Counted from the first letter of the stretch, positions 2,358-31,709 are shown. The stretch is DNA of 64,000 nt from a virus (IMGVR_UViG_3300034104_004745:1-64000); one strand, 5' to 3'. A program made the numbers and translations. Notes: generated from the letters alone by a model not told the origin.

Positions 2358-2372
2358 GTATATAAATATTAT
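2358..2372 (-). promoter_or_regulatory. Start-proximal conserved motif, sense ATAATATTTATATAC immediately 5' of the ATG (plus strand gTATATAAATATtat).
   Basis: One instance of the recurring TATAAATAT core found directly upstream of many start codons (see findings). Confidence 0.35.
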
Positions 2373-2830
2373 ACAAACCAGCTTGGGATATCTCTTAACT
2401 TCCAGGATGAGAATGTTCTTTTCTCTCCCATATAGTACTGTCTATAGGATTGGATGGGATTAATAGACTTATACTCGTCCGGCATGGCTAGAGGTGGGGC
2501 AGTGAATCTTATATCCTTTATCTTCGGGTGATTATCACAGCACCATAGAATAACATCATAGGACTTATGGGTCTTTCCATATCTATGCTTATATTCATAA
2601 CATAAATGTATTCCCAGTTCACATAACCAGATATAGTTATGTAGATCTTCCCTGGTCCATTTGGCACTAGGATGGTTTGCATGGGATAGTTTATAAGGGG
2701 CGGTTGATCCTGTCATCCAATGGGCACCACATAGTAACTGGGCGGTCTCCAGAATCATCTTAACCACATGCTTATCATTATGATACTGAGCACATTTGGC
2801 TGGGGATTTGTCCAAATAGAATATGTTCAT
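2369..2830 (-). CDS. Hypothetical protein (153 aa); conserved-looking DKHVVKMILETAQLL block.
   Basis: ATG-initiated ORF that packs tightly against its neighbours. Confidence 0.55.
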   Translation of the reverse strand: MNIFYLDKSPAKCAQYHNDKHVVKMILETAQLLCGAHWMTGSTAPYKLSHANHPSAKWTREDLHNYIWLCELGIHLCYEYKHRYGKTHKSYDVILWCCDNHPKIKDIRFTAPPLAMPDEYKSINPIQSYRQYYMGEKRTFSSWKLRDIPSWFV

Positions 2831-2832
2831 AT

Positions 2833-3234
2833 CTATTTTGTTAAAAGGTGAAAGGTTAAAAACAATTGAGCATAGTGAAGCACCTGGTCAAATCCAATAA
2901 TGGTAAATGCTCCGAAGTTCGGGATTGGTGATCCATAATGGTTATTTGCAAATCTTTTGCTTACAATCCTGCTGGTAATATAATCCGTTGCGAAATGAGC
3001 CACGAATGTGATCAATGTGAATGCTAGTGAATGGATAACATACCACTCAGTTGTTTCTGTTGGTCTTGCATATCCAAGTAATAAACAAGAAGCAAATAAC
3101 CAGAAGGTAGAATATACCCTCACATGGTGGAATAGTGCCATGTTGTTCTTGCTTTTATTGATGGCCCATTCTTCGGCCTGAAAGATGAAATCCGCAATGA
3201 AGTGGATTACAATCATTAAAAATGGTATTAACAT
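2833..3234 (-). CDS. Integral membrane protein (133 aa, 4 predicted TM segments).
   Basis: Several hydrophobic stretches. ATG start. Confidence 0.55.
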   Translation of the reverse strand: MLIPFLMIVIHFIADFIFQAEEWAINKSKNNMALFHHVRVYSTFWLFASCLLLGYARPTETTEWYVIHSLAFTLITFVAHFATDYITSRIVSKRFANNHYGSPIPNFGAFTIIGFDQVLHYAQLFLTFHLLTK

Positions 3235-3244
3235 ATTGTTTTAT

Positions 3245-3556
3245 TTAAATTGCTTCGCTGTATTGTTTATGATCTTCTACCACCTCTTCAATGAACGGCT
3301 GGTTCTCCAATTGCTCAATAACAATATTGATTGCTTCAGGATATTTGGTATGCCCGGATTGGAAATATACGGATGTTAAACCCAATACCTCATTGTTGAT
3401 ATAATGACGGTTCTTACCCTTGGCATTTAATATCTCATGATCCATGGACACGTCATCCCAATCATCAAGCACACATTGGTGCCCACCTTTGATTTTGTGG
3501 TGTAATCTCACAATATTATTGTGAGAAAAATTCTTGATAAATTCTCCTAATTTCAT
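3245..3556 (-). CDS. Hypothetical protein (103 aa).
   Basis: ORF with an ATG start at 3556. Confidence 0.5.
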   Translation of the reverse strand: MKLGEFIKNFSHNNIVRLHHKIKGGHQCVLDDWDDVSMDHEILNAKGKNRHYINNEVLGLTSVYFQSGHTKYPEAINIVIEQLENQPFIEEVVEDHKQYSEAI

Positions 3557-3721
3557 GGTTTTGTTGTTATGAGTTTCATATTATTTTATTTTAATTAAAA
3601 GATTTCCATACGGTATCAGAGATCTCCATACTTAATCCTAGATTATTTGTTATTAAAACCCCAAAATTTGTTTTTATTACTTTGGGATTACCGTTTATGA
3701 TTAACCCATTAGCGAATTTTA

Positions 3722-4141
3722 TCATAACACCTCAGTTAAGATCCTCCATTCCCTTAACAACGTACCATCAAAAGTACATTCAACTGGAACACCTTTAAGT
3801 TTATCAACACTACTTACTTTCGCTTCTTTTAATAACTTCGATAAGAACCTCATGGTTTCATCATAACCTTTTGTTCTATCCTTTTCAGTCCATTTACAAT
3901 TCTCCGTGTGTTTAATAGTTTCGGCATCCCAACTTCCTTTAAAGTCATTTACACCCCAACCATTAGCGGATAACGTGACAGTTAATCCCAACATAGCGTC
4001 TTGATAACCCCCATGTCCGAATCTAACTGATTCGATTTTTCCTAATTTCTTTTCCATATTAATAATTTTTAAGTAACCCAAATAAGAAACTGATTTGAAT
4101 GAATCCTCTTTGTCCCCACTCAATATAAAGTAGACATTCAT
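3722..4141 (-). CDS. Hypothetical protein (139 aa).
   Basis: ORF with an ATG start at 4141. Confidence 0.5.
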   Translation of the reverse strand: MNVYFILSGDKEDSFKSVSYLGYLKIINMEKKLGKIESVRFGHGGYQDAMLGLTVTLSANGWGVNDFKGSWDAETIKHTENCKWTEKDRTKGYDETMRFLSKLLKEAKVSSVDKLKGVPVECTFDGTLLREWRILTEVL

Positions 4142-4219
4142 TGTTATTGATTTCCAATAATGAAAACCATGACCTACCTTTTCTTTCGATGTATATGTCG
4201 AATAGTTCTAAGTTTAATC

Positions 4220-4393
4220 TCATATTAAATTATAATATTTTAAGATGTAAATGATTGAAAGGACAACCCCACCAATACCTGAAAGTCTTGCGAAAATCTT
4301 GTGGACAATGTTGCCGTTATTTACCGAAGCCACGGTGAAGAAAAGTGACGTTGGTAGAGTCACAAATGATAAAATTAATCCGATAATTGCCAT
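4220..4393 (-). CDS. Small membrane protein (57 aa), below the ORF-track size cut-off.
   Basis: ATG at 4391-4393. Two hydrophobic segments. Fills the gap between 4141 and 4398. Confidence 0.3.
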   Translation of the reverse strand: MAIIGLILSFVTLPTSLFFTVASVNNGNIVHKIFARLSGIGGVVLSIIYILKYYNLI

Positions 4394-4397
4394 AATT

Positions 4398-5000
4398 TTA
4401 ATTTATATTTAATGAGTCTGGATAATATAATAATGTTGGATTCTTCTTTTGAATATCAATATCTGGGTATTGTTTTTTGAATTCCATGACATCAAATCGT
4501 TTTGTGATTAGGTGATATCCGTTCTTTGTTGGAATGCACACTTCATTCTTGCTACCTTCAGGTCTTAGTCCATCAATAAACAAAGATACCCTCTGAACTT
4601 CTTCAATACTCTTATCATCAATATCAACAATCCATCTCTTCTCCAGGGTTTTAAGCTGACCAACCACACTATCAAATACATTCTTTTGATTCAACTGTCC
4701 GGATTGGATTCTGGTAACGATCTCCGTGATCATATTCATCCCCACATCCCTATGATTCTGTTTGCTAACATGAATATAAGCGCGAGCTTTGAATACCTCA
4801 CATAACATCTTAACCTCATCATACCTTTTATCAAGATATTCCAATGAGGTTACACAATATGATTTAATGGTTCTAACCGACTGATGATTCGCCTTGTCTG
4901 TTGTCTGGTCCTTCTTTCTTAGTAGAACAAACAACTGATAGAAATCCCCATCGTCAGAGAAATTAAGCAATGGCTTTATGAGATTAATGTTATCAATCAT
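4398..5000 (-). CDS. Hypothetical protein (200 aa).
   Basis: ATG at 5000. No recognisable motifs. Confidence 0.55.
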   Translation of the reverse strand: MIDNINLIKPLLNFSDDGDFYQLFVLLRKKDQTTDKANHQSVRTIKSYCVTSLEYLDKRYDEVKMLCEVFKARAYIHVSKQNHRDVGMNMITEIVTRIQSGQLNQKNVFDSVVGQLKTLEKRWIVDIDDKSIEEVQRVSLFIDGLRPEGSKNEVCIPTKNGYHLITKRFDVMEFKKQYPDIDIQKKNPTLLYYPDSLNIN

Positions 5001-5031
5001 AAAGCAAATGTAGACAATATTTTTAATATTC

Positions 5032-5060
5032 CAAAAAAAAACCGGAAAATCATTCCGGTT
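5032..5060 (-). terminator. Rho-independent terminator (AACCGGAAaatcaTTCCGGTT) with T9 on the minus strand, downstream of CDS 5067..6578.
   Basis: Perfect 8-bp stem plus A9 on the plus strand (T9 on minus). Confidence 0.55.
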
Positions 5061-5066
5061 ATATGT

Positions 5067-6578
5067 TTAGTTTTGATAATTTGCGAATCGATTAAACTCT
5101 TCTGTAATCTTATCTTTAGATTTCTTCGGGGCTTTTGGTGTGGATAATCTACCTATGACTGTAGACTTGAGACCATTATACTCTTCATGCTTCTTAACAT
5201 CAGAGATAAAGGTAAACATATCACCCTTATTATAATCACCATATAATTGTTCTGTACCCTCAGATGTTCTTAGTGCTGTGGATAGTTCACCGAACTTCTT
5301 AATACTATTACCATCTGTATCTTCAAATGACCATATGTTTCCATCACCAAATTGGCTAACGAAACTTCTATGGCTTTTAAGTGTTAGATCCGTGAACAAC
5401 ATCTTCTCACCAACCGTTCCAACAAATTCACTTGGTTTCTTCTCACCCATCGCCAGAACCTCCATATATTTGTGGACAGCATAGATTAATTTGCTACATT
5501 CTAATACTCTAAACTCTCCGGTTTCAAGCATTCTCTTGATTTCTGTTTGGAACATACCAAATCCTGATTCTGGATCTTTAACTTCAACTGAAGCCCAATA
5601 TGCTTTTAGTTTATTTGTAAGATCGTTATCTGGTTGAAAGCTATGAACCCTCTCATCATTAAACATAATCTCTTCACATAAATCGGCAGTTGCTTTACCT
5701 TGATTAGTTCTTATATACTCATAATCCGATCTCCATGCACTTATCTGTGTTTCTTGCTTATATCCCAATTTTTTAACATAACCTCTATCATCCAAAGCAT
5801 ATTTAACAACCGCTACCGCTACTGGTAATGGAATCGCAATCATAAAAGGAGAAACACGTTTCTTTCCACCACCATAAGAATCCTCCTCATCAAAATCACC
5901 AAGAGTGCGGTTCAATAACTCAAAAAAATCTATGGCTTTAATAAACTTTGCTGGATCAATTCCGAATACCTTCTTAACACAATCACCACCAAATCTTTTA
6001 TATTCACCAGTGGATTGCTGTTTAACAACCCAGCTCTTACCTCTATATCTATTAAGATGACAAAGATCACATTCTTGAGAAGGTTGAGTTAATTCTCCTG
6101 GCATTGGTGAATCACCAATTTTTACAGAACCACCACTTACGTTATCCACCACGCCTAATACTTCATAGTCAGGTAGTTGGAACATGTGTTTAACATTAAC
6201 TGTAACCGGAATCAAATCAACATAGTATTTGTACTTACCCCAAATCTCATCATAATGAACCCCTTTCCTTATTTTATCAGAAACAATAATCTCGGGTTCT
6301 GGAATTCTAAATTTTTTACTCATCTTTTTGATGGTCTCGACAGCTTTTTTCAAAGAAAATTCACTAGATACATGAAACTTATATTCCCTGAATATTTGCT
6401 TGGGTAGATCCACACTATCATCATCTTGATTAATATTGTCAGCATCAACCATAGCATCAGCTGTGGCAATAGCTTTCATATCTTCTTCAGAATCAACAGG
6501 TTCGTTAAAATTTTCCTCGTTTTCGGCCAAACGATTCACCAAATCGGTGTCTTCTTTAATAATGTCTAGAAATTTCAT
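5067..6578 (-). CDS. Hypothetical protein (503 aa). The start is re-called to the ATG at 6578; the track start at 6674 overlaps the divergent gene.
   Basis: Long ORF. CDLCH...GGDC Cys motifs. No family recognised. Confidence 0.55.
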   Translation of the reverse strand: MKFLDIIKEDTDLVNRLAENEENFNEPVDSEEDMKAIATADAMVDADNINQDDDSVDLPKQIFREYKFHVSSEFSLKKAVETIKKMSKKFRIPEPEIIVSDKIRKGVHYDEIWGKYKYYVDLIPVTVNVKHMFQLPDYEVLGVVDNVSGGSVKIGDSPMPGELTQPSQECDLCHLNRYRGKSWVVKQQSTGEYKRFGGDCVKKVFGIDPAKFIKAIDFFELLNRTLGDFDEEDSYGGGKKRVSPFMIAIPLPVAVAVVKYALDDRGYVKKLGYKQETQISAWRSDYEYIRTNQGKATADLCEEIMFNDERVHSFQPDNDLTNKLKAYWASVEVKDPESGFGMFQTEIKRMLETGEFRVLECSKLIYAVHKYMEVLAMGEKKPSEFVGTVGEKMLFTDLTLKSHRSFVSQFGDGNIWSFEDTDGNSIKKFGELSTALRTSEGTEQLYGDYNKGDMFTFISDVKKHEEYNGLKSTVIGRLSTPKAPKKSKDKITEEFNRFANYQN

Positions 6579-6696
6579 ACCAATAAATATTTGATGTATA
6601 ATGTTTGCACAAATGTAGAATATATTTTTGATACCACAAAAAAACCGGGTTAATATTTTATATACTTCCAACAATATTCTTCATATATTTATCAGT

Positions 6697-7911
6697 ATGA
6701 GGATATTATTGAACAAAGCACAAGTTAGTAGAATTATTGAAAATTATAATAATTCCAAAAATATAATTAAAGAAGAAACTGGTGGATTTTTTGCGAAACT
6801 ACCCCCAGGCTTCTCACAAGACGACTTTCTAAGTCCAGAACAAGCATGTGGTGCACAAGAAGAAGTTACTGAGGAAAACCAAACCCTAGACGATTTAAAA
6901 TTTGCTGCGCAATCCAGAGTAGACTCATTATTAAAAAGAAGAGCCGCTGGGGAAAAACATAGAAAAGGTGATCCTATTCTTCATTCATCGGTAGTTAGCA
7001 AAGTAGTGGATGAAAATGGTGTAGAAATAGATAAAGAAAAATTAAAAGCATTATTCTCCACAAGACCAGCAAGAATTATTAATGACACCAATAATAAATT
7101 ATTAAAATTAAACACCGTTGCAATAACAATGCCCACTTTCATGGGCTTAATGCATGATGAAACAGAAAATGTCCTAAGAATTGTAAATACCTGTCCCAAC
7201 GCAAAAGATTGCGTATTCAGTTGTTACACATTGAAGGGGCATTATACAATGTACGATGCCTCATCTAAAAAATCTTGTCAATCCCTTACATATCTTTTTA
7301 ACGATTATATGGGTTGGAAAAATCAAGTTCTCAGAGAATTAGAAGAGATACAATATAAAATAGAAAGACCTATATTAAGATGGCATGATGCTGGTGATTT
7401 TATGTCACGTAAGTATCTAGAAATCGCTATAGACATCGCCAAAGCCACTCCTGATGTTCAACACTATGCTTATACAAAAGAAGTGTCCCTTTTAAAATCA
7501 GCTAAATTGCCACCAAATTTCGAAATAACATTTTCGGAGGGAGGTAAAGAAGACATGTTAATAGATAAAACAAAAGAAAGATATTCAACAATTATATACA
7601 ACCAACCAGATAAAAATAAAAAAGCTAAAATCATAATTGATTTTAAAAAATATTATGATCAAAAGAAAATAGGTAGAGATAAAGACACATCCATTATATG
7701 GGTACCAAAGAGTGATGAACATATAATAGAGTTTAAAAAAGAACTATCAAAAGAAGCAGGTTTAGAATTGAGCTCTATTCTAACACTTAGAGAACTATTA
7801 AGAGTACCTGATAAACAAGAACGGATATACAATGTTATTGTTACCCCTAGCGATTCGGATTCTGCTGCAATTAGAAAAGACGTGTTGGGTATATTCTTAC
7901 TATACCATTAA
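6697..7911 (+). CDS. Hypothetical protein (404 aa). The start is re-called to the ATG at 6697 (MRILLNK).
   Basis: Plus-strand ORF divergent from 5067..6578. The upstream sequence carries AATATTTTATATAC and ATATATTTAT motif copies. Confidence 0.55.
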   Translation: MRILLNKAQVSRIIENYNNSKNIIKEETGGFFAKLPPGFSQDDFLSPEQACGAQEEVTEENQTLDDLKFAAQSRVDSLLKRRAAGEKHRKGDPILHSSVVSKVVDENGVEIDKEKLKALFSTRPARIINDTNNKLLKLNTVAITMPTFMGLMHDETENVLRIVNTCPNAKDCVFSCYTLKGHYTMYDASSKKSCQSLTYLFNDYMGWKNQVLRELEEIQYKIERPILRWHDAGDFMSRKYLEIAIDIAKATPDVQHYAYTKEVSLLKSAKLPPNFEITFSEGGKEDMLIDKTKERYSTIIYNQPDKNKKAKIIIDFKKYYDQKKIGRDKDTSIIWVPKSDEHIIEFKKELSKEAGLELSSILTLRELLRVPDKQERIYNVIVTPSDSDSAAIRKDVLGIFLLYH

Positions 7912-7917
7912 TGATAA

Positions 7918-8328: not shown

Positions 8329-8330
8329 CT

Positions 8331-9623: not shown

Positions 9624-9676
9624 GTATATAAATATTTTAATTCCAATAACCGTGAGACTTAAGGTAGAAGTCCGGA

Positions 9677-11926: not shown

Positions 11927-11937
11927 CTATATAAATA

Positions 11938-12162
11938 TTAGATAATCCTATTATCTGGGTACGATTCAAATATGAATTTCCTATTATATAGGTTGGACCA
12001 ACATCTCCCATCCATTTCAAATATCGCCGCATTATGTGCTGAAGCCAGTGCAGATCTCACATGTCCCTTAGCGAATTCAATCATAATTTCACTCATTGTG
12101 ATGTTCTTATTCTCCGCCATCATTTTCTCCATAAACTCTTGTGCACTTTGTTCCATTGTCAT
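11938..12162 (-). CDS. Hypothetical protein (74 aa). The start is re-called to the MTM ATG at 12162.
   Basis: The track start at 12228 lies inside a terminator hairpin. The ATG at 12162 is preceded by TAAATATAAATATTTTA. Confidence 0.4.
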   Translation of the reverse strand: MTMEQSAQEFMEKMMAENKNITMSEIMIEFAKGHVRSALASAHNAAIFEMDGRCWSNLYNRKFIFESYPDNRII

Positions 12163-12202
12163 TTTTATGTTCGTAAATATAAATATTTTAGCGATATAAA
12201 TA

Positions 12203-12242
12203 AATAAAAAACTAAAATCCCCATCCAATATGGACGGGGATT
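12203..12242 (-). terminator. Rho-independent terminator (11-bp stem AATCCCCATCC/GGACGGGGATT with one mismatch, then a T-run on the minus strand) downstream of CDS 12269..12664.
   Basis: Hairpin followed by a T-rich tract on the minus strand. Confidence 0.5.
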
Positions 12243-12268: not shown

Positions 12269-12664
12269 CTATCTTTTAACCAACGCATCAATCTTTTCAT
12301 ACTCTTCCCTAACCAGCAAATTCTCAATTGCTTTCTCTTTAGAGAATTGATATAACGATTTGTTATGGTCAAGATTACCACACATTAAATCTTCATATAA
12401 CTTGTCCGTAGATTCGTCGTCCAATACTTGATTTGGATCGTGACCTTTAGATTTGTTTAACATTTCCATTAAAGACATTACCTTACCAAATGCTATGTTT
12501 TCGTCATTAGTTAAGTTCAACTGTTCGTCAGTATCAAACATTCTTTGCATAACTTTTTTTGCAATTTCCTGTTCCTCTTTACTAACCACACTAAAGATGG
12601 GGTGTTCCATTATTTTAAAGAAGTCTTCGTACATATTAATTTTGTTTTGGTTTTTAAAATACAA
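12269..12664 (-). CDS. Hypothetical protein (131 aa).
   Basis: ORF. Confidence 0.5.
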   Translation of the reverse strand: MYFKNQNKINMYEDFFKIMEHPIFSVVSKEEQEIAKKVMQRMFDTDEQLNLTNDENIAFGKVMSLMEMLNKSKGHDPNQVLDDESTDKLYEDLMCGNLDHNKSLYQFSKEKAIENLLVREEYEKIDALVKR

Positions 12665-12685
12665 ATATAGAATTTTATTTTGATA

Positions 12686-14923: not shown

Positions 14924-15044
14924 TTTATCTTTATTTTAATATAATATAGATAAAAAAAATCAAAAAACAAAATCTGGAGTGCATAAAATAAAAAAAACCT
15001 TAGATAATTCTAAGGTTTTCAATAGGTTATGAGATATTATTTTG

Positions 15045-15344: not shown

Positions 15345-15397
15345 AAATGTTATGTTTTATATATAAATATAATGAAAATTAAGAAAATTTTAAAGTA

Positions 15398-16545: not shown

Positions 16546-16602
16546 TAAAAATTAATGTTTAATATAGTTTATTGCTAAGAAAAAATATAAGAAAAAAAAT
16601 CG

Positions 16603-16798: not shown

Positions 16799-16839
16799 TA
16801 GTATTCCTTAATATAAGGAAACCATTTCTTAAAACAAAA

Positions 16840-18081
16840 TTATTCAGCATCTTTTTCTACTTTATCATCAGACATTGATTCAACACCATCGATAATAAAT
16901 TTAGAACACTTAACAATCACATTTAAATTTACCATAATCTTTTCTTTATTTGCTTTCCATAAAGCTAAGTATGTTGGGTGTTGTGTAACTGGTAATTCAA
17001 AATACTTCATAATAGCATATGATACAGACTCAGCTTGAAGCTCTCTCATCTCTGATGTTTGAGCTGCTGGATCGTCAATGTAGAATGGAGATTTTGTCTT
17101 CCAGTGTAATAATTCGTGAGCAAGCTCGTGAGCAAGTACACTCGCTTCTGCAACACCTTCAACATCAGATGATAAATTAATATGTTCACCAGCACTAAAT
17201 CCTTTTTCCCCACCTTTTGCTGTATCTTTTGTTATTCGTATGTTTAAAGATTCCGCAAACGCTTTTAATCTAGTGGTCAATGCATCAGCAACTTCGCTCT
17301 TTTCATTCTCAGCAAACCATTTAGGTTGTTCTGGTATTTTACCTTCATCATTTAATGGATATGTGTCAGAAATATCATATACCTTACCCATAGAAAATCT
17401 GGTAACAGTTTGACCCTTCTTAACAGCATCGTCAACCTGGCTAAAATCAACACCTGTAGTGTCAACTTCTGCATTTGATTTAACTTGCATTGGGAACCAA
17501 ATCCAAATTGGTGTAGCGCCCTTTACAACCCCTCTATTGGTTTTCTTCCATGTGTTATAACCAGCAACTTTCTTAGCATCTTTCTTTTGTAGATAGATCA
17601 AGAATGAATTGGTTAAACTATAGTTATGGAATCTACTATAGAATGTTAAATAGTTTCTGATAGCAGCATCCATTGCAGCCTGATCTGTAGCATTAGCTAA
17701 GTCGTTAATGTACATATCAAGCTTATCCATGATTAAGTTCTTCTTTGATTGTTCAACATCAGTGTCTTCAATGAAATCCTCAAGCGTTTCTAGATCGTTA
17801 ATGATCTTTCTAAGTTTATTATGACCTTTAATTAAAACATTAATGGCTTCTAACTTATCATAATCACCAACCCAGTGTCCCAGATCTGGTTTCCAATCAA
17901 AGCCTAATTTTCTAAACTCTTTAGATAAACCCATGGTTTCTTTAACCCTGTCTCGCTTATCTTCTTTGTCTGAAAATATAATAATTTTCTTATTGGTATC
18001 GTCTTTTTTAAGGAAAATATCTTCCTTTAAGTTACTTTGTAGCGTTGGCCACTCGGATTCTTTAATTCTAATCTTTTTCAT
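16840..18081 (-). CDS. ArdC-like protein: N-terminal ssDNA-binding ArdC-N (DUF1738) domain plus a C-terminal zincin HExxH metallopeptidase domain.
   Basis: RFHNYSLTNSFLIYLQKKDAKKVAGYNTWKKTNRGVVKG matches the ArdC-N signature. AHELAHELLHW carries HExxH. Confidence 0.55.
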   Translation of the reverse strand: MKKIRIKESEWPTLQSNLKEDIFLKKDDTNKKIIIFSDKEDKRDRVKETMGLSKEFRKLGFDWKPDLGHWVGDYDKLEAINVLIKGHNKLRKIINDLETLEDFIEDTDVEQSKKNLIMDKLDMYINDLANATDQAAMDAAIRNYLTFYSRFHNYSLTNSFLIYLQKKDAKKVAGYNTWKKTNRGVVKGATPIWIWFPMQVKSNAEVDTTGVDFSQVDDAVKKGQTVTRFSMGKVYDISDTYPLNDEGKIPEQPKWFAENEKSEVADALTTRLKAFAESLNIRITKDTAKGGEKGFSAGEHINLSSDVEGVAEASVLAHELAHELLHWKTKSPFYIDDPAAQTSEMRELQAESVSYAIMKYFELPVTQHPTYLALWKANKEKIMVNLNVIVKCSKFIIDGVESMSDDKVEKDAE

Positions 18082-18092
18082 AATATATAAAT

Positions 18093-18117
18093 ATAAAAAA
18101 ACCGGGAAATATCCCGG
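18093..18117 (-). terminator. Rho-independent terminator (CCGGGAaataTCCCGG, then T7 on the minus strand) downstream of CDS 18123..18533.
   Basis: Same AAAAAACCGG hairpin family as the other terminators. Confidence 0.5.
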
Positions 18118-18122
18118 CTATT

Positions 18123-18533: not shown

Positions 18534-18587
18534 GTTGAATAATTTTGTAACAAAAATAGTCTAAATTTGTTACAGTGACAAATATTT

Positions 18588-19687: not shown

Positions 19688-19731
19688 TGAAACTAATATA
19701 GTGAATTTTGTTTAAAAAAAGAAAATTTGAT

Positions 19732-21683: not shown

Positions 21684-21775
21684 TTTTTGGGTTTAATTAT
21701 TGTTATTATGGATGGTTGGGTTCAAAGTTTCAATTAAATAAATCTTAAAGGAAGTTTTAAGTTTGAGGAATAAAT

Positions 21776-21805
21776 GTTGATTCGTTGATTGTTAATTGTT
21801 GAATT
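21776..21805. repeat. Four tandem GTTGAWT(T) direct repeats inside a 226-nt intergenic region (GTTGATTcGTTGATTGTTAATTGTTGAATT).
   Basis: Read directly from the sequence. Iteron-like or operator-like. Confidence 0.3.
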
Positions 21806-21909
21806 CATTAACGATATCTATTCATCAGGCTTTGTAGATTAATATGTCAAATGACTTGTGGCCATTCGTCTTAATTTAATTAACATCCACCTATCCCCCA
21901 ACCAATATT

Positions 21910-23670: not shown

Positions 23671-23751
23671 GTAAGTAAATGTTCTTACGCAAATATAGAT
23701 ATTATTTTCATGAAATCAAAAAATATGGATACAGAATCATATATTTTTTCT

Positions 23752-23766
23752 TGATATTTATATTAT
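23752..23766 (+). promoter_or_regulatory. Start-proximal motif GATATTTATATTATT immediately 5' of the ATG at 23768 (sense copy of ATATTTATAT).
   Basis: Same motif family as found upstream of the minus-strand gene starts. Confidence 0.3.
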
Positions 23767-23767
23767 T

Positions 23768-27300: not shown

Positions 27301-27414
27301 TGCGTAATCCGCTCCTTTGGATATTAAATCATCCAAAACGTCTTCATTGATGTTCTCGTTTGAGAGTCTGCGTTTTAACCTTACAATCTGGTCTTCGTTA
27401 AATATAAATCTCAT
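24316..27414 (-). CDS. Multidomain peptidoglycan hydrolase (1032 aa): PG_binding_1-like domain, M23 zinc endopeptidase, a glucosaminidase-like domain and a roughly 500-aa C-terminal region of unknown function. Likely a virion-associated lysin.
   Basis: M23 motifs HGGIDIG...D and GPHLHL. PG-binding block GLFGPETAAAVNKYKQ. Glucosaminidase-like block AQLTLEGGLSTNPND...NPFNVGN. Confidence 0.75.
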   Translation of the reverse strand: MRFIFNEDQIVRLKRRLSNENINEDVLDDLISKGADYANKGIDAVKDFISGLDVPVEKKSTDIADKADFISANVDDFYKVLDSIKSPITQQKFGSMTRQQGVEAVQIGLQLLGYSFPKFGTDGLFGPETAAAVNKYKQDKDIVDDDTAEVNAAAQSNATDLNEMVLITPVPITSDIRHGFNEKRGNRIHGGIDIGAKVGTPIKAIADGKVIAAGSLDSRCGDGISIEHAEGLRSSYCHLSGINVKTGDVINQGHVIGLTGGAVGARGSGNSKGPHLHLTLKKNGQRVDPMQYFGSSIGTYYDSGNSETVLGGATISTEMVKQLISDLKSKNITSDDIKKHIDPAVTTGGSIDFTDLDLNTGEGVESYKKICDNFIRLRNPSAQVSGEMMAVAAERVFKRYGKYVPPELALAQLTLEGGLSTNPNDRPIKTKNPFNVGNTAKKDNPQASFKDGVNLYYDLIARKYLVKGKTASDLVNDFKNENGYAYAEAGTYEAGLKKLIGNIRDKNAPIYAQLKTRNQTTTLAEELLIESDKRQAIKNVLGFNDEWANEFHMLSKKISIWIAGSFLKEIIKETQIPSDEEPERYVVGLLNSDGPEGSNVWDRRYKSAYEYILHWFRAPRREQLNIRQMSFQDAYTQAEEWHDTLEARKESNYTEKGDVFIDYRNDKGIGYYWVNLHKNYCSQEAERMGHCARANTPGSKLISLRGINDFGEGESLITVDYRPGGVLGDFHRHGNKKPTSRLHPQIVDFLINTRFPVTQLTSQGVHRYGDNFQLSDLSPQNLQRVYDANPALRFNINDKGSWPEIINAILSGELNFDNYSNEIKAELLKTASDMDKGQEFADKFNDKTIFKVVNDFRRISGDVKRNFMSFFGSKMNDALIRKIDNVSEEEMKEMFTDSLKEISQDLFEYYTMFCEYIDHGFRKFSEQEHIDILSAKGIKRTIFSCTDVVPFLARYVENSPIDKNGNIAVKTEENLWGLIKQNGEVVLHPQFKGVTLNKIDLSGKTYIIKNLQDIFYKYNHQTGDYSKFTMKS

Positions 27415-27443
27415 AACTTATAAATATCATGTTTAGTTAAGTT

Positions 27444-27611
27444 TTATCCGTTTCCTATTTGATTTTTATCATCTTCATCAAATACACCAAATAAATCATC
27501 CCCTTTGTAATCTGGGTGGTTTTTCATCATATAATCAATTCCAACCACCCATCTCCAGGAGATTAGGCCGACAACGATGAACATTAATCCAAAAACTGGT
27601 AAGTATTCCAT
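27444..27611 (-). CDS. Small membrane protein (55 aa).
   Basis: ATG at 27611. A single TM segment. Fills the gap between neighbouring genes. Confidence 0.3.
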   Translation of the reverse strand: MEYLPVFGLMFIVVGLISWRWVVGIDYMMKNHPDYKGDDLFGVFDEDDKNQIGNG

Positions 27612-27615
27612 ATGC

Positions 27616-27978
27616 TTATTTTTTAGTTTTATTGTGTGGTGTTGGGTTTCCGTGTTCGTCTACCGCAACAAATACTATTTTATCAATAACAGTTATTACT
27701 CGATGCGTATCCTTATTTCTAACAATACATTTTATTGTAATCGATGTTGTTCCTAGAGTAATCATTTCACAACCGATCTCAATTATATCCCCTAGCTTGG
27801 CAGATGCAATGAAATCAATTTCACTCATTACTTTTGTTACCACATTAGGTGTCCCCAATTGGCAAATACAATAGATTGCAGCCTCTTCATCGATCCACTT
27901 TAACAGTTGACCGCCAAATAGTGTACCTCTTGGATTTAGGTCTTCTGGTTTAATTAGTTTCCTTGTCCTGAATATCAT
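27616..27978 (-). CDS. Acyl-CoA thioesterase (hotdog fold, YciA/4HBT-like).
   Basis: The pattern NPRGTLFGGQLLKWIDE...VVTKV...GD.IEI...GTTS aligns with YciA-type thioesterases. Confidence 0.65.
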   Translation of the reverse strand: MIFRTRKLIKPEDLNPRGTLFGGQLLKWIDEEAAIYCICQLGTPNVVTKVMSEIDFIASAKLGDIIEIGCEMITLGTTSITIKCIVRNKDTHRVITVIDKIVFVAVDEHGNPTPHNKTKK

Positions 27979-28573
27979 CAGTTAAAAATTTTAAAATCTT
28001 TTCTTTAATTCCACTTTGTTTTATACCCTCAGATCCACGAGGCGTCTCAACAAAATTATCTAATCCCCAATTATGTACAAATTCCACACTATAATCCATA
28101 CCGGTTTTACCCATCCTTAAATCATCAATTGAAACCCAGTGAGTTATTTCCGGATGATCGTGTAGGTATTGTTTAATCTCAATACATCTGGTTTGTTCTA
28201 AGTCCCATTCGCGAGACCATGGAAATCCAGCTTTATAATCTTCAATATACCAGGTGCAATGACCGAGATTTGGTGTAAATGCTATAGGCTTCTTAATGAT
28301 ACCTTGTTGTTCATAATATTCACCCATCTGTTCAACACTAGCCCATCTCTTCCAATCTGAACTAACAACAATCTCAGCACCAGTTTCTTCTAAAATAGAA
28401 TTCAGTACTTTAATAGATTTGTCATCAAAGTCATCAAAACGATATTCCAAAGGAATTTCGTCATTAGTCATGGACAATTTACGTCCACCCCACTTTGCTT
28501 GTTTTTTAAAACGTCCACCCCAATTATTGGATAAACAAATCACACCATCGTGATCAAGAAATATTACTTTCAT
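27950..28573 (-). CDS. HAD-superfamily hydrolase (putative phosphatase or nucleotidase).
   Basis: Motif I FLDHDGV (DxDxV), motif II VVSSD, motif IV SIDD. Confidence 0.5.
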   Translation of the reverse strand: MKVIFLDHDGVICLSNNWGGRFKKQAKWGGRKLSMTNDEIPLEYRFDDFDDKSIKVLNSILEETGAEIVVSSDWKRWASVEQMGEYYEQQGIIKKPIAFTPNLGHCTWYIEDYKAGFPWSREWDLEQTRCIEIKQYLHDHPEITHWVSIDDLRMGKTGMDYSVEFVHNWGLDNFVETPRGSEGIKQSGIKEKILKFLTDDIQDKETN

Positions 28574-28892
28574 TTTTTCTATTTTTAAGTATTAATCTAA
28601 ATGTACTTAAAATACCTAAAAACATGAATAGTTGAACTGGCCAATATGGAAGATTTTGTAGTTCATGAAGCATCCAAAAGATGTTCATGTTAAGCCATGA
28701 TAAGAGAACTAAATTACTGTCTCTTAATTCTTTCTCCCTTATAAAAATGTATATTGCTAGAAGTAGAGTGGGTAAAACCATCACTGTAGCCATCCATGTC
28801 CATTTCAACGTCCAAAAAACGTCTTTAAGTAGCCACAAAATTACATGGATTTCATGAATATTCAAAATTTTTTTATGAGTTTCTTTCGACAT
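28554..28892 (-). CDS. Membrane protein (112 aa, 3 TM segments).
   Basis: Hydrophobic ORF. Confidence 0.45.
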   Translation of the reverse strand: MSKETHKKILNIHEIHVILWLLKDVFWTLKWTWMATVMVLPTLLLAIYIFIREKELRDSNLVLLSWLNMNIFWMLHELQNLPYWPVQLFMFLGILSTFRLILKNRKNESNIS

Positions 28893-29304
28893 ATTCTAAC
28901 TGAGGTGTCCAAACCCCTTCAGATATAACTTTAGGTGCCCCGTTTCTATCGATCATAACCCATTCATAATTTACAATTCCCCAAGGTTCGAATTGTTCAA
29001 TAACATCCTGAAGGGTAAAACACTTACAAGAATAGATATCAAATTGAGCCATAGCAGGTTCATGATGATCCCAAATATGTATTGAAGAATGTGATGTAGC
29101 TAAGGTAACCGTTCCAGTTAAACCCTCATTACCAGGGTAGTCAACATAAACACTGGTTGGTCCTCCAACCACTTCCATCTTTACTTTGTGAACTAAATCA
29201 ACAAACCATTTATTAAGAACATCCACCTCTTTTGGTGGATTTTTAACCCAGATCTTCATTAGAAGATGTTGATGATACGGAACGAATTCTTCCTGCATTT
29301 GCAT
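28873..29304 (-). CDS. Pyruvoyl-dependent decarboxylase of the S-adenosylmethionine decarboxylase (SpeH/AdoMetDC class 1) family.
   Basis: GTVTLATSHSSIHIWDHHEPAMAQFDIYSCK aligns with bacterial AdoMetDC [27 protein letters not shown], including the self-cleavage Ser. Confidence 0.6.
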   Translation of the reverse strand: MQMQEEFVPYHQHLLMKIWVKNPPKEVDVLNKWFVDLVHKVKMEVVGGPTSVYVDYPGNEGLTGTVTLATSHSSIHIWDHHEPAMAQFDIYSCKCFTLQDVIEQFEPWGIVNYEWVMIDRNGAPKVISEGVWTPQLEYVERNS

Positions 29305-29353
29305 AATTTTTACTATACATATATATCATCAAAATTGTATTTTTCTGGGGTGG

Positions 29354-30046
29354 TTAATTATTATTTTTTTTGTACTTTTTGAAGTTCTTAACGAACTCTT
29401 TTTCATACTTTTTTAGCTCTTTAGTCTCCAATCCATTATATAAACCAGTAGACATAAAAGCTTGGATTTCATCGTCAATTATCTTCTTATCATCAACATA
29501 CCCCATTTTAACAAGCTTCTTTCTTAATTTCTCATAATGAGTTGGTTTAATATTATTGATTAAGTTTTTAACTTCGACTTGATAATCTTTATTAGTATAA
29601 TATAACCCATGTGCTATCTCATGATCCATGGTCTTTAGATCTTTACTGCTAGCACCGATCAAATACCATTTTTTTCTTGTCCCATCATTTTTATTTTGGG
29701 AATCAATCGCACAATAGAAATAAATGTTGTTCATTATTTCATCATACTCAGTTTCTTTGTAGAATACGTTATTTGCTTTCTCAACAATATTAGATGGGAT
29801 GTTATACCCCGCCCAATCTTCTGGGTATGTAAACACGTCTTTCTTCCAGAATTGTTTATAGTGGCGCATATATTCTTCCCAAGAAAAATACTTACCTCTA
29901 AACTTTTTAAATGGAGACTCGTAGAATTCTTGATAACGACAGAACAACATTGCTCTATCATAGTTGTCATCAACAATCACACAATAAATGGATGGATGTA
30001 CCTCTTTTACAACCCCTTTAACTAGAGGGTGTTTAATTTTAATCAT
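29354..30046 (-). CDS. Hypothetical protein (230 aa) with an HEIAH (HExxH) motif.
   Basis: ORF. Possibly a zincin, but weakly supported. Confidence 0.5.
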   Translation of the reverse strand: MIKIKHPLVKGVVKEVHPSIYCVIVDDNYDRAMLFCRYQEFYESPFKKFRGKYFSWEEYMRHYKQFWKKDVFTYPEDWAGYNIPSNIVEKANNVFYKETEYDEIMNNIYFYCAIDSQNKNDGTRKKWYLIGASSKDLKTMDHEIAHGLYYTNKDYQVEVKNLINNIKPTHYEKLRKKLVKMGYVDDKKIIDDEIQAFMSTGLYNGLETKELKKYEKEFVKNFKKYKKNNN

Positions 30047-30324
30047 CTTAAATGTTTAAACCTATCGGCTAAATTATTAATATAGTTTTCTTCATCAACT
30101 GAAAGTAAATCCCTACACTTCGCTAAATGATCAATACTATCCCAAAATCTTTGATCATGAATAGTCGGTCTACTGACACCAGTTCCTTTGTTTTTTTCCG
30201 CTTGAGTTGGTTCAATATCACCATCTTCAATTAACCATTTAATTAATTCTTCTCTTTCTGACTTGCTACATGAATCAAGATATTCACTTGGGTCGATGTC
30301 TACTTCTGCTGTAAATTCTGGCAT
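30043..30324 (-). CDS. Hypothetical protein (93 aa).
   Basis: ORF with a 4-nt overlap with the upstream gene. Confidence 0.45.
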   Translation of the reverse strand: MPEFTAEVDIDPSEYLDSCSKSEREELIKWLIEDGDIEPTQAEKNKGTGVSRPTIHDQRFWDSIDHLAKCRDLLSVDEENYINNLADRFKHLR

Positions 30325-30328
30325 AACT

Positions 30329-30661
30329 TTAAGTTAAATGTTTAATAATAATTGTTAGTGAAATCATTATCCAAATAGTGTTAAATACTATTAATGTTGG
30401 AAGTTCTTTTCTCATACTGGCCCATATTAGTAATGAAGATGTTATCAACGTTAAAAAATGTAAATACCAAATTTCAATACCATATAGTAAACCTGGAACA
30501 ATAATAATCGCTTTAGTCATCCAAGCGGCAAATTCGATTATATTATAATCGGTCCAATAAGATTTATCTTTAAACATTAATAAACGCTTAAAAATCTTTT
30601 CCCACCCAATAAAACTATAAAGGATTGTTATGTAAACAATATAGATTGTTAAATTGAGCAT
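30329..30661 (-). CDS. Membrane protein (110 aa, 3-4 TM segments).
   Basis: Hydrophobic ORF. Confidence 0.5.
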   Translation of the reverse strand: MLNLTIYIVYITILYSFIGWEKIFKRLLMFKDKSYWTDYNIIEFAAWMTKAIIIVPGLLYGIEIWYLHFLTLITSSLLIWASMRKELPTLIVFNTIWIMISLTIIIKHLT

Positions 30662-30696
30662 GTATTAATATAAGAAAAAAAGATGAAATAAAAAAA

Positions 30697-31026
30697 TTAG
30701 AGTGAGAAACTTTCACCACACCCACAAGTTCTGGATGCATTGGGGTTTACCCATTGAAAGCCCTTACCATTCAAACCGCTAGAGTATTGCAGTTCAGTAC
30801 CAAACAAATAAAGAACAGATTTTTTATCAATTACCACTTTAAGTTCTGGTAGATTAATAATCTCATCCATTTCAGTAATGTCTGTATCAAAATCCATAAC
30901 ATATGAAAGACCACTACACCCACCACCTTTAACCCCTACACGCAAAAAATGGGTACCGTTGTCGATACCCTCTTCTTTCATAACGTCTTTGAGATGTGTT
31001 AATGCTGTCTCAGTAATAGTAATCAT
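30697..31026 (-). CDS. A-type iron-sulfur cluster carrier (IscA/HesB/ErpA family).
   Basis: Near full-length alignment to IscA, including GGCSG and the C-terminal CGCGESF Cys ligands. Confidence 0.85.
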   Translation of the reverse strand: MITITETALTHLKDVMKEEGIDNGTHFLRVGVKGGGCSGLSYVMDFDTDITEMDEIINLPELKVVIDKKSVLYLFGTELQYSSGLNGKGFQWVNPNASRTCGCGESFSL

Positions 31027-31028
31027 TG

Positions 31029-31262
31029 TTATTCGTTAGAAATTAACTTACCATCAGGAAAATACTTATGAAGTACTTCCAGTTTATCCTCAGCATCAAC
31101 TAATCTTTGTAATGCTATTTCCGCGTCATTTAGGAAATCATTAGCGGTGTGATCGCCAATACCAACAGCTTTTTCTGTTAATAATTCTAATGACATTAAT
31201 GCGTGTTCTTTTTCTGAAATTGCTTTAGCTACCAGTGCCTTAATAAGTCTTGGATTTGACAT
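31029..31262 (-). CDS. Hypothetical protein (77 aa).
   Basis: ORF. Confidence 0.45.
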   Translation of the reverse strand: MSNPRLIKALVAKAISEKEHALMSLELLTEKAVGIGDHTANDFLNDAEIALQRLVDAEDKLEVLHKYFPDGKLISNE

Positions 31263-31266
31263 TGTT

Positions 31267-31452
31267 TTATTTATTGTTTAGTTTATTTAAAAGCGAGTCT
31301 GTTGTTTTTTTATCAACAGTTATTTCTTTTACCACATGGGTTTCTTTTCTTAATTTAGACAACTCTTTTTGTTGAAAGTAACAAACAAGTAGTAGCACAA
31401 CTGCAGCGCCTTTTGTTATGTTGTCATGGTTTTTTTTAAAGAATTCTATCAT
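31267..31452 (-). CDS. Small membrane-associated protein (61 aa).
   Basis: ORF with a TATAAATAT motif upstream. Confidence 0.4.
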   Translation of the reverse strand: MIEFFKKNHDNITKGAAVVLLLVCYFQQKELSKLRKETHVVKEITVDKKTTDSLLNKLNNK

Positions 31453-31463
31453 AGTTATAAATA

Positions 31464-31709
31464 TTAAGTAATTAATTCATCTGTGTTGATGTTGTTGTCA
31501 TTTAGAATTTCGTATATTTTTTCATATACTAATTCAAGTACATCATATTTGTCCAAGTCTTTACCTTCTAAAGACCACTCTAATCCTTTTTTTGTATTAT
31601 GGGTAATCTCCCATAAAGCCATAGCCATATCTAGAGATTTAACAGCACGCTTGTGTGCAATCACATCATCAGGATCACTTAAATCAAATTTTAATATCGC
31701 CTCCGCCAT
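31464..31709 (-). CDS. Hypothetical protein (81 aa).
   Basis: ORF. Confidence 0.45.
   Translation of the reverse strand: MAEAILKFDLSDPDDVIAHKRAVKSLDMAMALWEITHNTKKGLEWSLEGKDLDKYDVLELVYEKIYEILNDNNINTDELIT

What the first reader, a model, noticed from the sequence alone, without database searches (positions are those of the whole stretch)
2358..31466. Conserved start-proximal motif (sense ATATTTATATA, plus-strand core TATAAATAT) directly upstream of many ATG codons
A near-palindromic A/T motif recurs within 1-15 nt of the ATG. Minus-strand genes (plus-strand coordinates of the motif, with the gene start in parentheses):
- 2358-2372 (2357)
- 9624-9638 (9623)
- 11927-11940 (11926)
- 12174-12190 (12162)
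- 15358-15373 (15344)
- 18082-18100 (18081)
- 27417-27431 (27414)
- 31455-31466 (31452)

Related copies lie at 48257-48270 (48237), 54441-54470 (54440) and 56726-56743 (56725).

Plus-strand genes, with the motif in sense orientation:
- 6644-6658 and 6680-6693 (6697)
- 23752-23766 (23768)
- 40119-40134 (40135)

The motif is too close to the ATG for a classical leader. It may be a phage-specific (middle or late) promoter producing leaderless or very short-leader mRNAs, or an SD-independent translation-initiation enhancer. It resembles the T4 late TATAAATA box but is positioned differently. It also flags true ATG starts where the ORF track begins at TTG or GTG (22514, 37248, 50238, 53679).
Basis: seen in the sequence. 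Interest (0 to 1): 0.65.

Follow-up and report, generated by a model that had tools for sequence, protein, structure and literature searches.

The report
Start-adjacent phage promoter box TATTTATA
An uncultured large phage, probably of Bacteroidota, carries a conserved 8-base box (TATTTATA) 3-5 bases before the start codon of about one gene in eight; it is most likely a phage-specific promoter that makes messenger RNAs with little or no leader.

Summary
All nine exact copies of ATATTTATA lie in sense orientation upstream of gene starts. Seven are 3-5 nt from the ATG and two are 15-17 nt away. AT-matched models expect about 0.9 copies.

The core is TATTTATA. Upstream of one conserved gene it is invariant across 80 related metagenomic contigs while its flanks vary. 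It also sits before non-orthologous genes in relatives.

It directly follows intrinsic terminators, has no -33/-35 partner, and can lie 15-26 nt from the ATG. The window has no Shine-Dalgarno sites and carries Bacteroidota-type TTTG-N19-TAnnTTTG promoters.

Best reading: a single-element, phage-specific promoter at the host -7 box position, giving leaderless or nearly leaderless mRNAs, possibly late ones. No transcription start was mapped.

It is the exact reverse complement of the T4 late box, so it is not a member of that family.

Unexpectedly, motif-bearing genes share an N-terminal peptide ending in (I/L/F)-x-E, like T4 capsid-targeting propeptides.

The TTG/GTG claim fails for the ORFs named.

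The parts
2361..2369 (-). Motif 1, exact ATATTTATA. 3 nt before the ATG (2357) of a 263-aa SprT-like protein. Its first A is the last base of the upstream gene's TAA stop.
6582..6590 (-). Motif 1 variant ATATTTATT. 3 nt before the ATG (6578) of a 503-aa protein. A host-type promoter lies 20 nt further upstream (its -7 box ends at 6610).
6685..6693 (+). Motif 1 variant ATATTTATC. 3 nt before the ATG (6697) of a 404-aa GP88-family protein, in a divergent intergenic region.
9627..9635 (-). Motif 1, exact. 3 nt before the ATG (9623) of a 260-aa protein.
11930..11938 (-). Motif 1, exact. 3 nt before the ATG (11926) of a 749-aa protein. Overlaps the upstream TAA stop.
12178..12186 (-). Motif 1, exact. 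15 nt before the ATG (12162) of a 74-aa protein and 29 nt downstream of the terminator at 12216-12242.
12216..12242 (-). Intrinsic-terminator-like hairpin (12 pairs) plus T-run, immediately upstream of the motif copy at 12178-12186.
15362..15370 (-). Motif 1, exact. 17 nt before the ATG (15344) of a 99-aa membrane-like protein. Conserved at the same distance in relative L003.
18086..18094 (-). Motif 1, exact. 4 nt before the ATG (18081) of a 413-aa ArdC-like anti-restriction protein. Abuts the T-run of the terminator at 18100-18119.
   Evidence: conserved in L003 and L012
18100..18119 (-). Intrinsic-terminator-like hairpin (8 pairs, 5 G-C) plus T-run that runs into the motif.
23754..23762 (+). 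Motif 1, exact. 5 nt before the ATG (23768) of a 183-aa Kyanoviridae-gp96-like protein, in a divergent intergenic region.
27419..27427 (-). Motif 1, exact. 4 nt before the ATG (27414) of a 1032-aa protein with an M23 peptidase domain.
31456..31464 (-). Motif 1, exact. 3 nt before the ATG (31452) of a 61-aa protein. Overlaps the upstream TAA stop.
40123..40131 (+). Motif 1 variant GTATTTATT. 3 nt before the ATG (40135) of a 118-aa protein. It is the only promoter-like element on this strand in a 52-nt divergent region.
56730..56738 (-). Motif 1 variant GTATTTATA. 4 nt before the ATG (56725) of a conserved 368-aa protein. The box is invariant in 80 related contigs.

Best explanation
TATTTATA, usually preceded by A or G and followed by TA, is a self-sufficient single-element promoter of this phage lineage. 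It occupies -12 to -5 relative to the A of the start codon. That is the position the host-type Bacteroidota -7 box (TAnnTTTG) occupies relative to a transcription start. Transcription would therefore begin at or within 1-2 nt of the AUG, giving leaderless or nearly leaderless mRNAs that need no upstream ribosome-binding sequence.

The last three positions differ from the host box (ATA instead of TTG) and there is no -33 partner. Recognition is therefore probably by RNA polymerase carrying a phage-encoded or phage-modified specificity factor, in the way T4 gp55 reads TATAAATA without a -35 element. Timing is probably late.

Shown: the motif, its orientation, its spacing, its conservation, the absence of a partner element, and its placement after terminators.

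Inferred: that it is a promoter, where transcription starts, which factor reads it, and when.
For: 1. Placement and orientation are far beyond chance: 9 of 9 copies are sense-oriented, against 0.9 expected in an AT-matched model.

2. Phylogenetic footprint. Upstream of the 368-aa gene, in 80 contigs and 22 distinct sequences, positions -12 to -6 are invariant and -5 is A in 21 of 22. Positions -16 to -13 and -4/-3 vary, and the spacing stays at 4 nt.

3. In about 1 Mb of relatives, 37 of 62 distinct TATTTATA contexts lie 3-5 nt before an ORF-opening ATG. The opposite strand shows no such association.

4. The box precedes non-orthologous genes in relatives: a 664-aa gene, a metallophosphoesterase, and 592-aa and 601-aa genes.

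5. Terminator hairpin plus T-run runs directly into the motif and then the ATG. This occurs at 18081 and 12162 and in L003, L012, L010 and L013. That leaves no room for any other promoter.

6. Three plus-strand genes in divergent intergenic regions, which must have their own promoters, carry the box. At 40135 it is the only candidate.

7. There is no conservation upstream of the box in 25 independent sites.

8. The box is not tied to the ATG. Conserved copies lie at 15, 17, 20-26 and 24 nt, with diverged A-rich leaders in between. This argues against an initiation-site element.

9. Geometry. The flavobacterial -7 element spans -12 to -5 and lies 4-5 nt from the start site (PMC6847099; PMC9723704). 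A -10-like box 6-7 bp from the ORF is the experimentally shown signature of leaderless genes in Deinococcus (PMC12340547) and in GeneMarkS-2 group C genomes (PMC6028130).

10. Other genes in the window have A-rich upstream regions (A at -3 in 63%). Motif genes do not.

11. Late timing. Homologues of the 368-aa protein in three cyanomyovirus genera each carry the T4-type late box NATAAATA 22 nt upstream, and it is the only such box in about 6 kb (PMC2984593). Motif genes also share a capsid-targeting-like N-terminal peptide.
Against: - No transcription start site has been mapped for this phage or any relative, and there is no cultured relative.
- With the 8-mer placed at -12 to -5 and the flavobacterial 4-5 nt rule, the 12 sites with a 3-nt spacer would start at the U of the AUG. 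The box register or the start site must shift by 1 nt for them.
- Leaderless mRNAs are rare in Bacteroidota: 3.7-5.5% of mRNAs, and 87% of leaders exceed 10 nt.
- No sigma-like factor, gp55 or RNA polymerase gene lies in the 64-kb window.
- Part of the similarity among copies may come from spread of a shared 5' cassette rather than independent selection.
Confidence: 0.6

Rival explanations
1. RNA-level translational element. AUAUUUAUA in a longer polycistronic mRNA would be either an operator for a RegA-like translational repressor or an AU-rich enhancer (for example an S1-binding site) next to the AUG.
For: T4 RegA sites are A+U-rich, unstructured, and overlap or lie just 5' of the AUG (PMC3014915). 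The host lacks Shine-Dalgarno initiation (PMC6847099). Most copies lie 3-5 nt from the AUG. Three copies sit in 11-nt spacers between co-directional genes that are probably co-transcribed.
Against: RegA operators lack a strict consensus, whereas here an 8-mer is invariant. Conserved copies lie 15-26 nt from the AUG. Copies sit right after terminators and in divergent regions. The sequence lacks the A at -3 and the A-rich context that favours initiation in Flavobacterium. No RegA-like protein was found in the window.
Confidence: 0.15
2. RNA processing site. A host or phage endoribonuclease would cut at the AU-rich box and release short-leader monocistronic mRNAs from polycistronic precursors.
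For: The sequence is AU-rich and single-stranded, and lies at gene boundaries, including 11-nt intercistronic spacers. T4 provides a precedent for sequence-specific cleavage at initiation regions in RegB.
Against: Copies downstream of terminators and in divergent regions would have little precursor RNA to process. No nuclease with this specificity is known.
Confidence: 0.07
3. Genuine T4-type late promoters TATAAATA on the opposite strand, firing away from the adjacent gene. They would make antisense RNA, or drive the divergent neighbour.
For: The reverse complement is the exact T4/KVP40 late consensus. The phage shares genes with T4-like cyanophages. In the three divergent regions the opposite-strand box would face a real gene 40-110 nt away.
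Against: In the nine tandem co-directional cases it would transcribe antisense into the 3' end of the upstream gene. A fixed 3-5 nt distance to the ATG on the other strand, and invariant spacing across 80 contigs, have no explanation under this reading. At 18081 it would fire straight into a hairpin.
Confidence: 0.05
4. No regulatory role. The similarity would reflect a shared 5' gene cassette (upstream sequence, ATG and N-terminal peptide) spread by recombination or duplication.
For: Motif genes share N-terminal peptides and some identical bases after the ATG. The box marks boundaries where gene content differs between the window and L003.
Against: The 368-aa gene and several others carry the box without the shared peptide. 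There the box is invariant while the adjacent bases and codons 2-3 vary, which indicates selection on the box itself.
Confidence: 0.05

Closest known systems
Bacteriophage T4 late promoter (TATAAATA, read by gp55 with gp33 and gp45) and its cyanomyovirus form NATAAATA
   Same: An 8-bp A/T-only box with no -35-type partner, scattered in front of individual genes. Six of eight positions are identical in the same orientation (TAT--ATA). A homologous gene carries NATAAATA in cyanophages and TATTTATA here.
   Different: The central AA is TT, which makes the box the exact reverse complement of the T4 box. T4 gp55 inserts adenines at -12, -9 and -8 into pockets, and -9 would be T here. The T4 box spans -13 to -6 with a leader and Shine-Dalgarno site downstream. 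Here the box ends 3-5 nt before the ATG. No gp55, gp33 or gp45 has been found so far.
Bacteroidota primary-sigma promoter (-33 TTTG / -7 TAnnTTTG)
   Same: It starts with TA, is 8 bp long and has T at the fifth position. If transcription starts at the ATG it sits at -12 to -5, as the -7 box does. Genuine host-type promoters are present in the same window.
   Different: The near-invariant T-7 and G-5 are replaced (TATA instead of TTTG). There is no -33 element. Host-type promoters in the window mostly have 17-32 nt leaders, whereas this box abuts the ATG.
Leaderless-gene architecture: a -10 box adjacent to the ORF (Deinococcus-Thermus; GeneMarkS-2 group C genomes)
   Same: A promoter box at a fixed short distance from the start codon, no ribosome-binding site, and sufficiency without a -35 element.
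   Different: There it is a genome-wide host feature read by the primary sigma (TANNNT). Here it is a phage-specific box in a host phylum where leaderless mRNAs make up only about 4-5%.
Thermus phage phiYS40 middle/late transcription (Sevostyanova et al. 2007, J Mol Biol 366:420; recalled from memory, paper not held)
   Same: As I recall, its middle and late promoters lack a -35 element and many of those transcripts are leaderless. That would be a phage-stage-specific switch to leaderless mRNAs.
   Different: Different host phylum, different box sequence, and TSS-mapped there versus only predicted here. This comparison rests on my own knowledge and could not be checked.

Membership tests
T4-type late promoter | TATAAATA (or NATAAATA) on the non-template (sense) strand upstream of the gene | tested here: not met
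   The sense strand reads TATTTATA, and TATAAATA is on the template strand in all 13 window copies. Only one sense-oriented TATAAATA lies upstream of a gene, at 40787.
T4-type late promoter | Adenines at -12, -9 and -8 read by gp55 pockets | tested here: not met
   If aligned at -13 to -6, the box has T at -10 and -9 (PMC7892883).
T4-type late promoter | No conserved -35-type element | tested here: met
   Information content is at most 0.3 bits at all 11 positions upstream of the box's flanking base, in 25 independent sites.
T4-type late promoter | Genome encodes gp55, gp33 and a gp45 clamp | not testable with these tools
   None was found among the 89 window proteins. The rest of the genome, in contigs of up to 176 kb for close relatives, could not be fetched.
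T4-type late promoter | Precedes late (virion) genes | tested here: inconclusive
   The box precedes the homologue of a cyanophage gene that has a late box, an M23 peptidase, and genes with capsid-targeting-like N-termini. The 1951-aa fibre-like gene lacks it.
Bacteroidota sigma-A promoter | -7 element TAnnTTTG (T-8, T-7, T-6 and G-5 near-invariant) | tested here: not met
   The box is TATTTATA. It matches T, A and two of the three T's but never the G.
Bacteroidota sigma-A promoter | -33 TTTG about 19 nt upstream of the -7 element | tested here: not met
   No upstream conservation. At 18081 that position lies inside a terminator hairpin.
Leaderless-gene promoter architecture | Promoter box at a fixed short distance upstream of the start codon | tested here: met
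   The spacer is 3-5 nt in 24 of 25 sites, and exactly 4 nt in 80 orthologous contigs.
Leaderless-gene promoter architecture | Transcription start at or within a few nt of the start codon | not testable with these tools
   No RNA 5'-end data are available for this phage.
Leaderless-gene promoter architecture | AUG start codon and no ribosome-binding motif between box and start | tested here: met
   All motif-adjacent starts are ATG, and the 3-5 nt spacer is not conserved. The whole window lacks Shine-Dalgarno sites, so this test is weak.
RegA-type translational operator | A+U-rich site overlapping or just 5' of the AUG, bound by a RegA protein encoded by the phage | tested here: inconclusive
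   Position and composition fit for 11 of 13 copies. However, the consensus is strict, unlike RegA sites; copies occur 15-26 nt away; and no RegA family hit was found in the window.

The most novel reading that the evidence does not exclude
The box is the front end of a modular 5' cassette: a late promoter, a leaderless AUG, and a capsid-targeting propeptide of about 7-15 residues ending in (I/L/F)-x-E that a prohead protease would remove. Placed in front of unrelated genes (an ArdC-like anti-restriction protein, a SprT-like protease, an M23 peptidase, a GP88-family protein and others), the cassette would make them late-expressed, head-packaged and injected with the DNA as a swappable arsenal of anti-defence and host-takeover effectors. 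The lineage would also switch late translation to leaderless mRNAs in a host phylum where these are rare.
Probability: 0.25. Interest if true: 0.8.

Novelty: new variant of a known kind. Interest (0 to 1): 0.55.

Why it matters
Promoters of phages that infect Bacteroidota are almost uncharacterised, and this lineage is widespread: it appears in at least 80 IMG/VR contigs, including contigs of 176 and 335 kb.

A defined 8-bp box with a predicted start at the AUG gives three things:
- a directly testable regulon;
- a way to correct start-codon calls in these genomes;
- a candidate portable expression signal for Bacteroidota genetics.

If the transcripts are leaderless, it would show a phage using a translation route that its host seldom uses. 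The link between the box and a shared T4-like capsid-targeting peptide, if confirmed, would identify a set of injected proteins, including an ArdC-like anti-restriction factor, from sequence alone.

Tried and rejected
- DNA and protein searches of cultured phage genomes found no close relative. Megablast of 25 kb gave nothing. tblastn with the 749-aa protein gave nothing. The 368-aa and 503-aa proteins hit only cyanomyoviruses and vibriophages at under 31% identity.
- An IMG/VR scan with the 749-aa and 1032-aa proteins found nothing. The GP88-like protein gave only distant loci without the motif.
- Literature searches for the motif, for crAss-like or Flavobacterium phage promoters, and for leaderless phage mRNAs in Bacteroidota found nothing relevant. 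The phiYS40 paper is not held.
- Sigma-70-type promoter scans show no enrichment, consistent with a non-sigma-70 host.
- No tRNA genes and no Rfam family are present, so the box could not be tested in front of a non-coding gene.
- A search for a sigma factor, gp55, RegA or RNA polymerase among all 89 window proteins found none.
- Walking outward reached only accessory and glycan-modification genes, not the head, tail or transcription modules. Look-up limits stopped further walking.
- Looking for contigs that start at the ATG, as a proxy for transcripts, gave nothing usable.
- A relative at 54% identity, binned in a Bacteroidota MAG, lacks the box. The motif is therefore confined to the closer clade.
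- The first dinucleotide-shuffle script timed out. It was replaced by Markov and mononucleotide controls.
- A test on the most frequent 9-mer of any sequence is uninformative, because homopolymer runs dominate it.

Full report
**What the window is**

The 64-kb window is 32% G+C and is densely packed with about 89 genes, mostly on the minus strand. Its proteins include:
- a SprT-like protease, an ArdC-like anti-restriction protein and a 1032-aa M23 peptidase protein;
- GP88-like and Kyanoviridae-gp96-like proteins, thymidylate synthase, and Acb1/2'-5' ligase-like proteins;
- HNH endonucleases, glycosyltransferases, radical-SAM enzymes and a 1951-aa fibre-like protein.

No cultured phage is close. 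The 368-aa and 503-aa proteins find only T4-like cyanophages and KVP40-like vibriophages at under 31% identity. Metagenomic relatives are common and include contigs of 93, 100, 176 and 335 kb.

**The host is probably a member of the Bacteroidota**

- No gene has a Shine-Dalgarno sequence.
- Genes without the motif have A-rich upstream regions with A at -3 in 63%. This matches the Kozak-like pattern of Flavobacterium (PMC6847099).
- Four intergenic sites match the full TTTG-N19-TAnnTTTG promoter.
- Sigma-70-type promoters are not enriched.
- A distant relative is binned in a Bacteroidota MAG.

The sense 9-mer ATATTTATA occurs nine times in 128 kb of both strands. Every copy is on the coding strand upstream of a gene start: seven lie 3-5 nt from the ATG and two lie 15-17 nt away.

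The raw genome-wide count is unremarkable, but the placement is not:
- 11 of 12 copies of ATATTTAT fall within the 40 nt upstream of starts, which is 2.8% of the sequence.
- A second-order Markov model trained on those same AT-rich regions gives 0.9 copies (maximum 5 in 1000 runs) against 9 observed.
- TATTTATA-N3-ATG and -N4-ATG occur 5 and 3 times against 0.26 and 0.39 expected.

**Comparative evidence**

In L003, a syntenic relative with about 80% protein identity, the box is kept before four orthologues. It also precedes genes absent from the window: a 664-aa gene on the other strand, a metallophosphoesterase and a 123-aa gene.

In relatives at 68-78% identity it appears as GTATTTATA or CTATTTATA, 3-4 nt before the ATG of unrelated 592-aa and 601-aa genes.

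Upstream of the 368-aa gene, 80 IMG/VR contigs give 22 distinct sequences:
- Positions -12 to -6 (TATTTAT) never change.
- Position -5 is A in 21 of 22.
- Positions -16 to -13, -4, -3 and codons 2-3 do change.
- The spacer is always 4 nt.

Across about 1 Mb of relatives, 37 of 62 distinct TATTTATA contexts lie 3-5 nt before an ORF-opening ATG. The same sites read on the other strand (TATAAATA) show nothing comparable.

From 25 independent sites the element is [A>G>C]-TATTTAT-A. There is no information upstream, none in the spacer, and the spacers are 3 nt (12 sites), 4 nt (9), 5 nt (3) and 1 nt (1).

**Why a promoter**

1. Strong terminator-like hairpins with T-runs lead straight into the box and then the ATG. 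This occurs at 18081 and 12162 and at three different genes in relatives. The other strong coding-strand terminators in 1-20 kb are followed by a host-type promoter or by motif 2.
2. Plus-strand genes in divergent regions (6697, 23768, 40135) must have their own promoters, and each carries the box. At 40135 nothing else is available.
3. The box is not bound to the ATG. Copies at 15 and 17 nt are conserved in L003. A copy 20-26 nt upstream of a roughly 490-aa gene is conserved between a 176-kb and a 335-kb contig, while the A-rich leader between box and ATG has diverged.
4. In flavobacteria the sigma-A -7 element spans -12 to -5 and lies 4-5 nt from the start site. The box here occupies -12 to -5 relative to the A of the ATG at the 4-nt-spacer sites.
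5. A -10-type box 6-7 bp from the ORF is the experimentally supported signature of leaderless genes elsewhere.

One weakness concerns the spacing. The 12 sites with a 3-nt spacer need a 1-nt shift of register or start site. Leaderless mRNAs are only about 4-5% of host mRNAs.

**Which polymerase form, and when**

The box shares TA and T-8 with the host element but replaces T-7 and G-5, and it has no -33 partner. Host-type promoters in the window mostly have leaders of 17-32 nt. This suggests a distinct specificity factor.

T4 late promoters are the obvious functional analogue: an 8-bp -10-like element with no -35 element, read by gp55. The box here is the exact reverse complement of TATAAATA. 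In the sense orientation it keeps TAT--ATA but has TT where gp55 reads adenines. It therefore works like a T4 late promoter but is not a member of that family.

Two indirect lines of evidence point to late timing.
- First, the cyanophage homologues of the 368-aa protein (P-SSM4, Syn19, S-RIM12) each carry NATAAATA 22 nt upstream, as the only such box in about 6 kb.
- Second, the motif genes share an N-terminal peptide, described next.

**An unexpected associated feature**

Proteins behind the box are unrelated overall, yet their first 7-15 residues resemble one another:
- MKILITENQL, MGISIILTEAQV, MRFIFNEDQI and MRILLNKAQVSRIIEN;
- MKFRSIIHQILED, MKFLDIIKED, MKLLYIINEA and MKKIRIKESE.

The mean pairwise N-terminal score of the 11 ATG-proximal motif genes exceeds all but 1 of 20,000 random gene sets. 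A post-hoc pattern, M[KRG]hh...(I/L/F)xE, matches 8 of 13 motif genes against 2 of 76 others.

The peptide is exchanged among non-homologous proteins in relatives. The L003 462-aa protein starts MKIVITESQL, and the L012 ArdC-like protein starts MKKIIITESQL. Synonymous differences show the conservation is at the protein level.

This looks like the T4 capsid-targeting sequence, a roughly 10-residue propeptide removed by the gp21 protease after L/I-x-E. T4 uses it to load internal proteins such as the anti-restriction factor IPI into heads (PMC9026906). If the peptide plays that role here, the motif genes must be made late. This is inference, and no prohead protease of this lineage has been seen.

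**Rivals**

- A RegA-like operator or AU-rich enhancer fits the position of most copies. It does not fit the strict consensus, the distal conserved copies, or the terminator and divergent-region contexts.
- An RNA processing site is possible but has no precedent.
- Opposite-strand T4-type late promoters would explain the sequence. They would not explain the fixed distance to the ATG, nor nine cases of firing antisense into the upstream gene.
- Pure cassette inheritance fails for the 368-aa gene, where the box alone is invariant.

**Verdict**

The motif is real, conserved and functional. It is most probably a lineage-specific single-element promoter positioned to yield leaderless or nearly leaderless mRNAs (confidence about 0.6), and possibly the late promoter (about 0.35-0.4). 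It is a new variant of known kinds, combining a T4-late-like single-box promoter with a leaderless gene architecture, in a phage group and host phylum where neither has been described.

Noticed in passing
window 1229-1237, 14941-14949, 16559-16567, 16808-16816, 19693-19701, 30665-30673, 32979-32987, 50206-50214, 54458-54466, 57881-57889, 63772-63780 (all minus strand): A second enriched upstream motif, (Y)TATATTA, occurs 17 times against 0.85 expected. It is often preceded by T-runs or terminators. In five or six genes it lies 3-5 nt from the ATG, the same geometry as motif 1; elsewhere it lies 9-35 nt away. It precedes the 1951-aa fibre-like gene and is probably another promoter class.
   Followed up: partly
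window 5005-5035, 6610-6640, 18551-18582, 23690-23720 (minus strand); -7 boxes alone at 12662-12669, 36592-36599, 40115-40122: Canonical Bacteroidota promoters (TTTG-N19-TAnnTTTG) sit upstream of genes, mostly with 17-32 nt leaders. One, at 5005-5012, lies 4 nt from the ATG of gene 4398-5000. Gene 5067-6578 has a host-type promoter and a motif-1 variant in tandem.
   Followed up: partly
N-termini of genes starting at 2357, 6578, 6697, 9623, 11926, 18081, 23768 and 27414, plus 8328 (which has no motif): Unrelated proteins share an N-terminal peptide ending in (I/L/F)-x-E, reminiscent of the T4 capsid-targeting sequence and gp21 cleavage site (permutation p about 5e-5). The same peptide is swapped between different proteins in relatives L003 and L012.
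   Followed up: partly
window 54489-57877 (minus strand): Three tandem paralogues (371, 368 and 377 aa; N-termini xxENxExSGSL) are homologous to the cyanomyovirus T4-GC351 'sericin-like' protein. Only the middle one carries motif 1. The gene is very conserved (84-99% identity) in 80 IMG/VR contigs.
   Followed up: partly
window 37557-37572 (minus strand), upstream of the ATG at 37556: This is the only Shine-Dalgarno-like sequence seen in the window: GGGAGG, 4 nt before the ATG of the 102-aa gene 37248-37556.
   Followed up: no
L007 6200-10000 and L003 17000-21000 (beyond the left end of the window): An array of small genes is each preceded by a near-identical intercistronic sequence, TAAATAAAACTATTTnAAnn-ATG, which includes the upstream stop codon. 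The spacing to the ATG (0-3 nt after TATTTnAA) is too short for the promoter geometry proposed for motif 1. It may be a coupling signal or a duplicated cassette.
   Followed up: no
window 40781-40794 (minus strand): An orphan TATTTATA-tat-ATG is followed by only a 3-codon ORF, on the non-coding strand of a plus-strand gene block and next to a terminator. Its reverse complement is the only sense-oriented TATAAATA upstream of a gene (40809).
   Followed up: no
window 37922-39052 (minus strand): Thymidylate synthase is 376 aa against a 266-position Pfam model matched end to end. This implies an insertion of about 110 residues.
   Followed up: no
window 21684-21909, 32975-33205, 36569-36768, 3557-3721: Unusually long non-coding gaps (165-231 nt) in an otherwise tightly packed genome. 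None gave an Rfam hit or a tRNA.
   Followed up: partly
L102 (IMGVR_UViG_3300042391_000634, 335,630 nt): A jumbo-sized contig (29.5% G+C in the 20.7-kb locus held) shares the glycan-modification gene block next to the fibre gene and a conserved TATTTATA 20 nt upstream of a 496-aa gene. The motif therefore extends to a jumbo-phage relative.
   Followed up: partly
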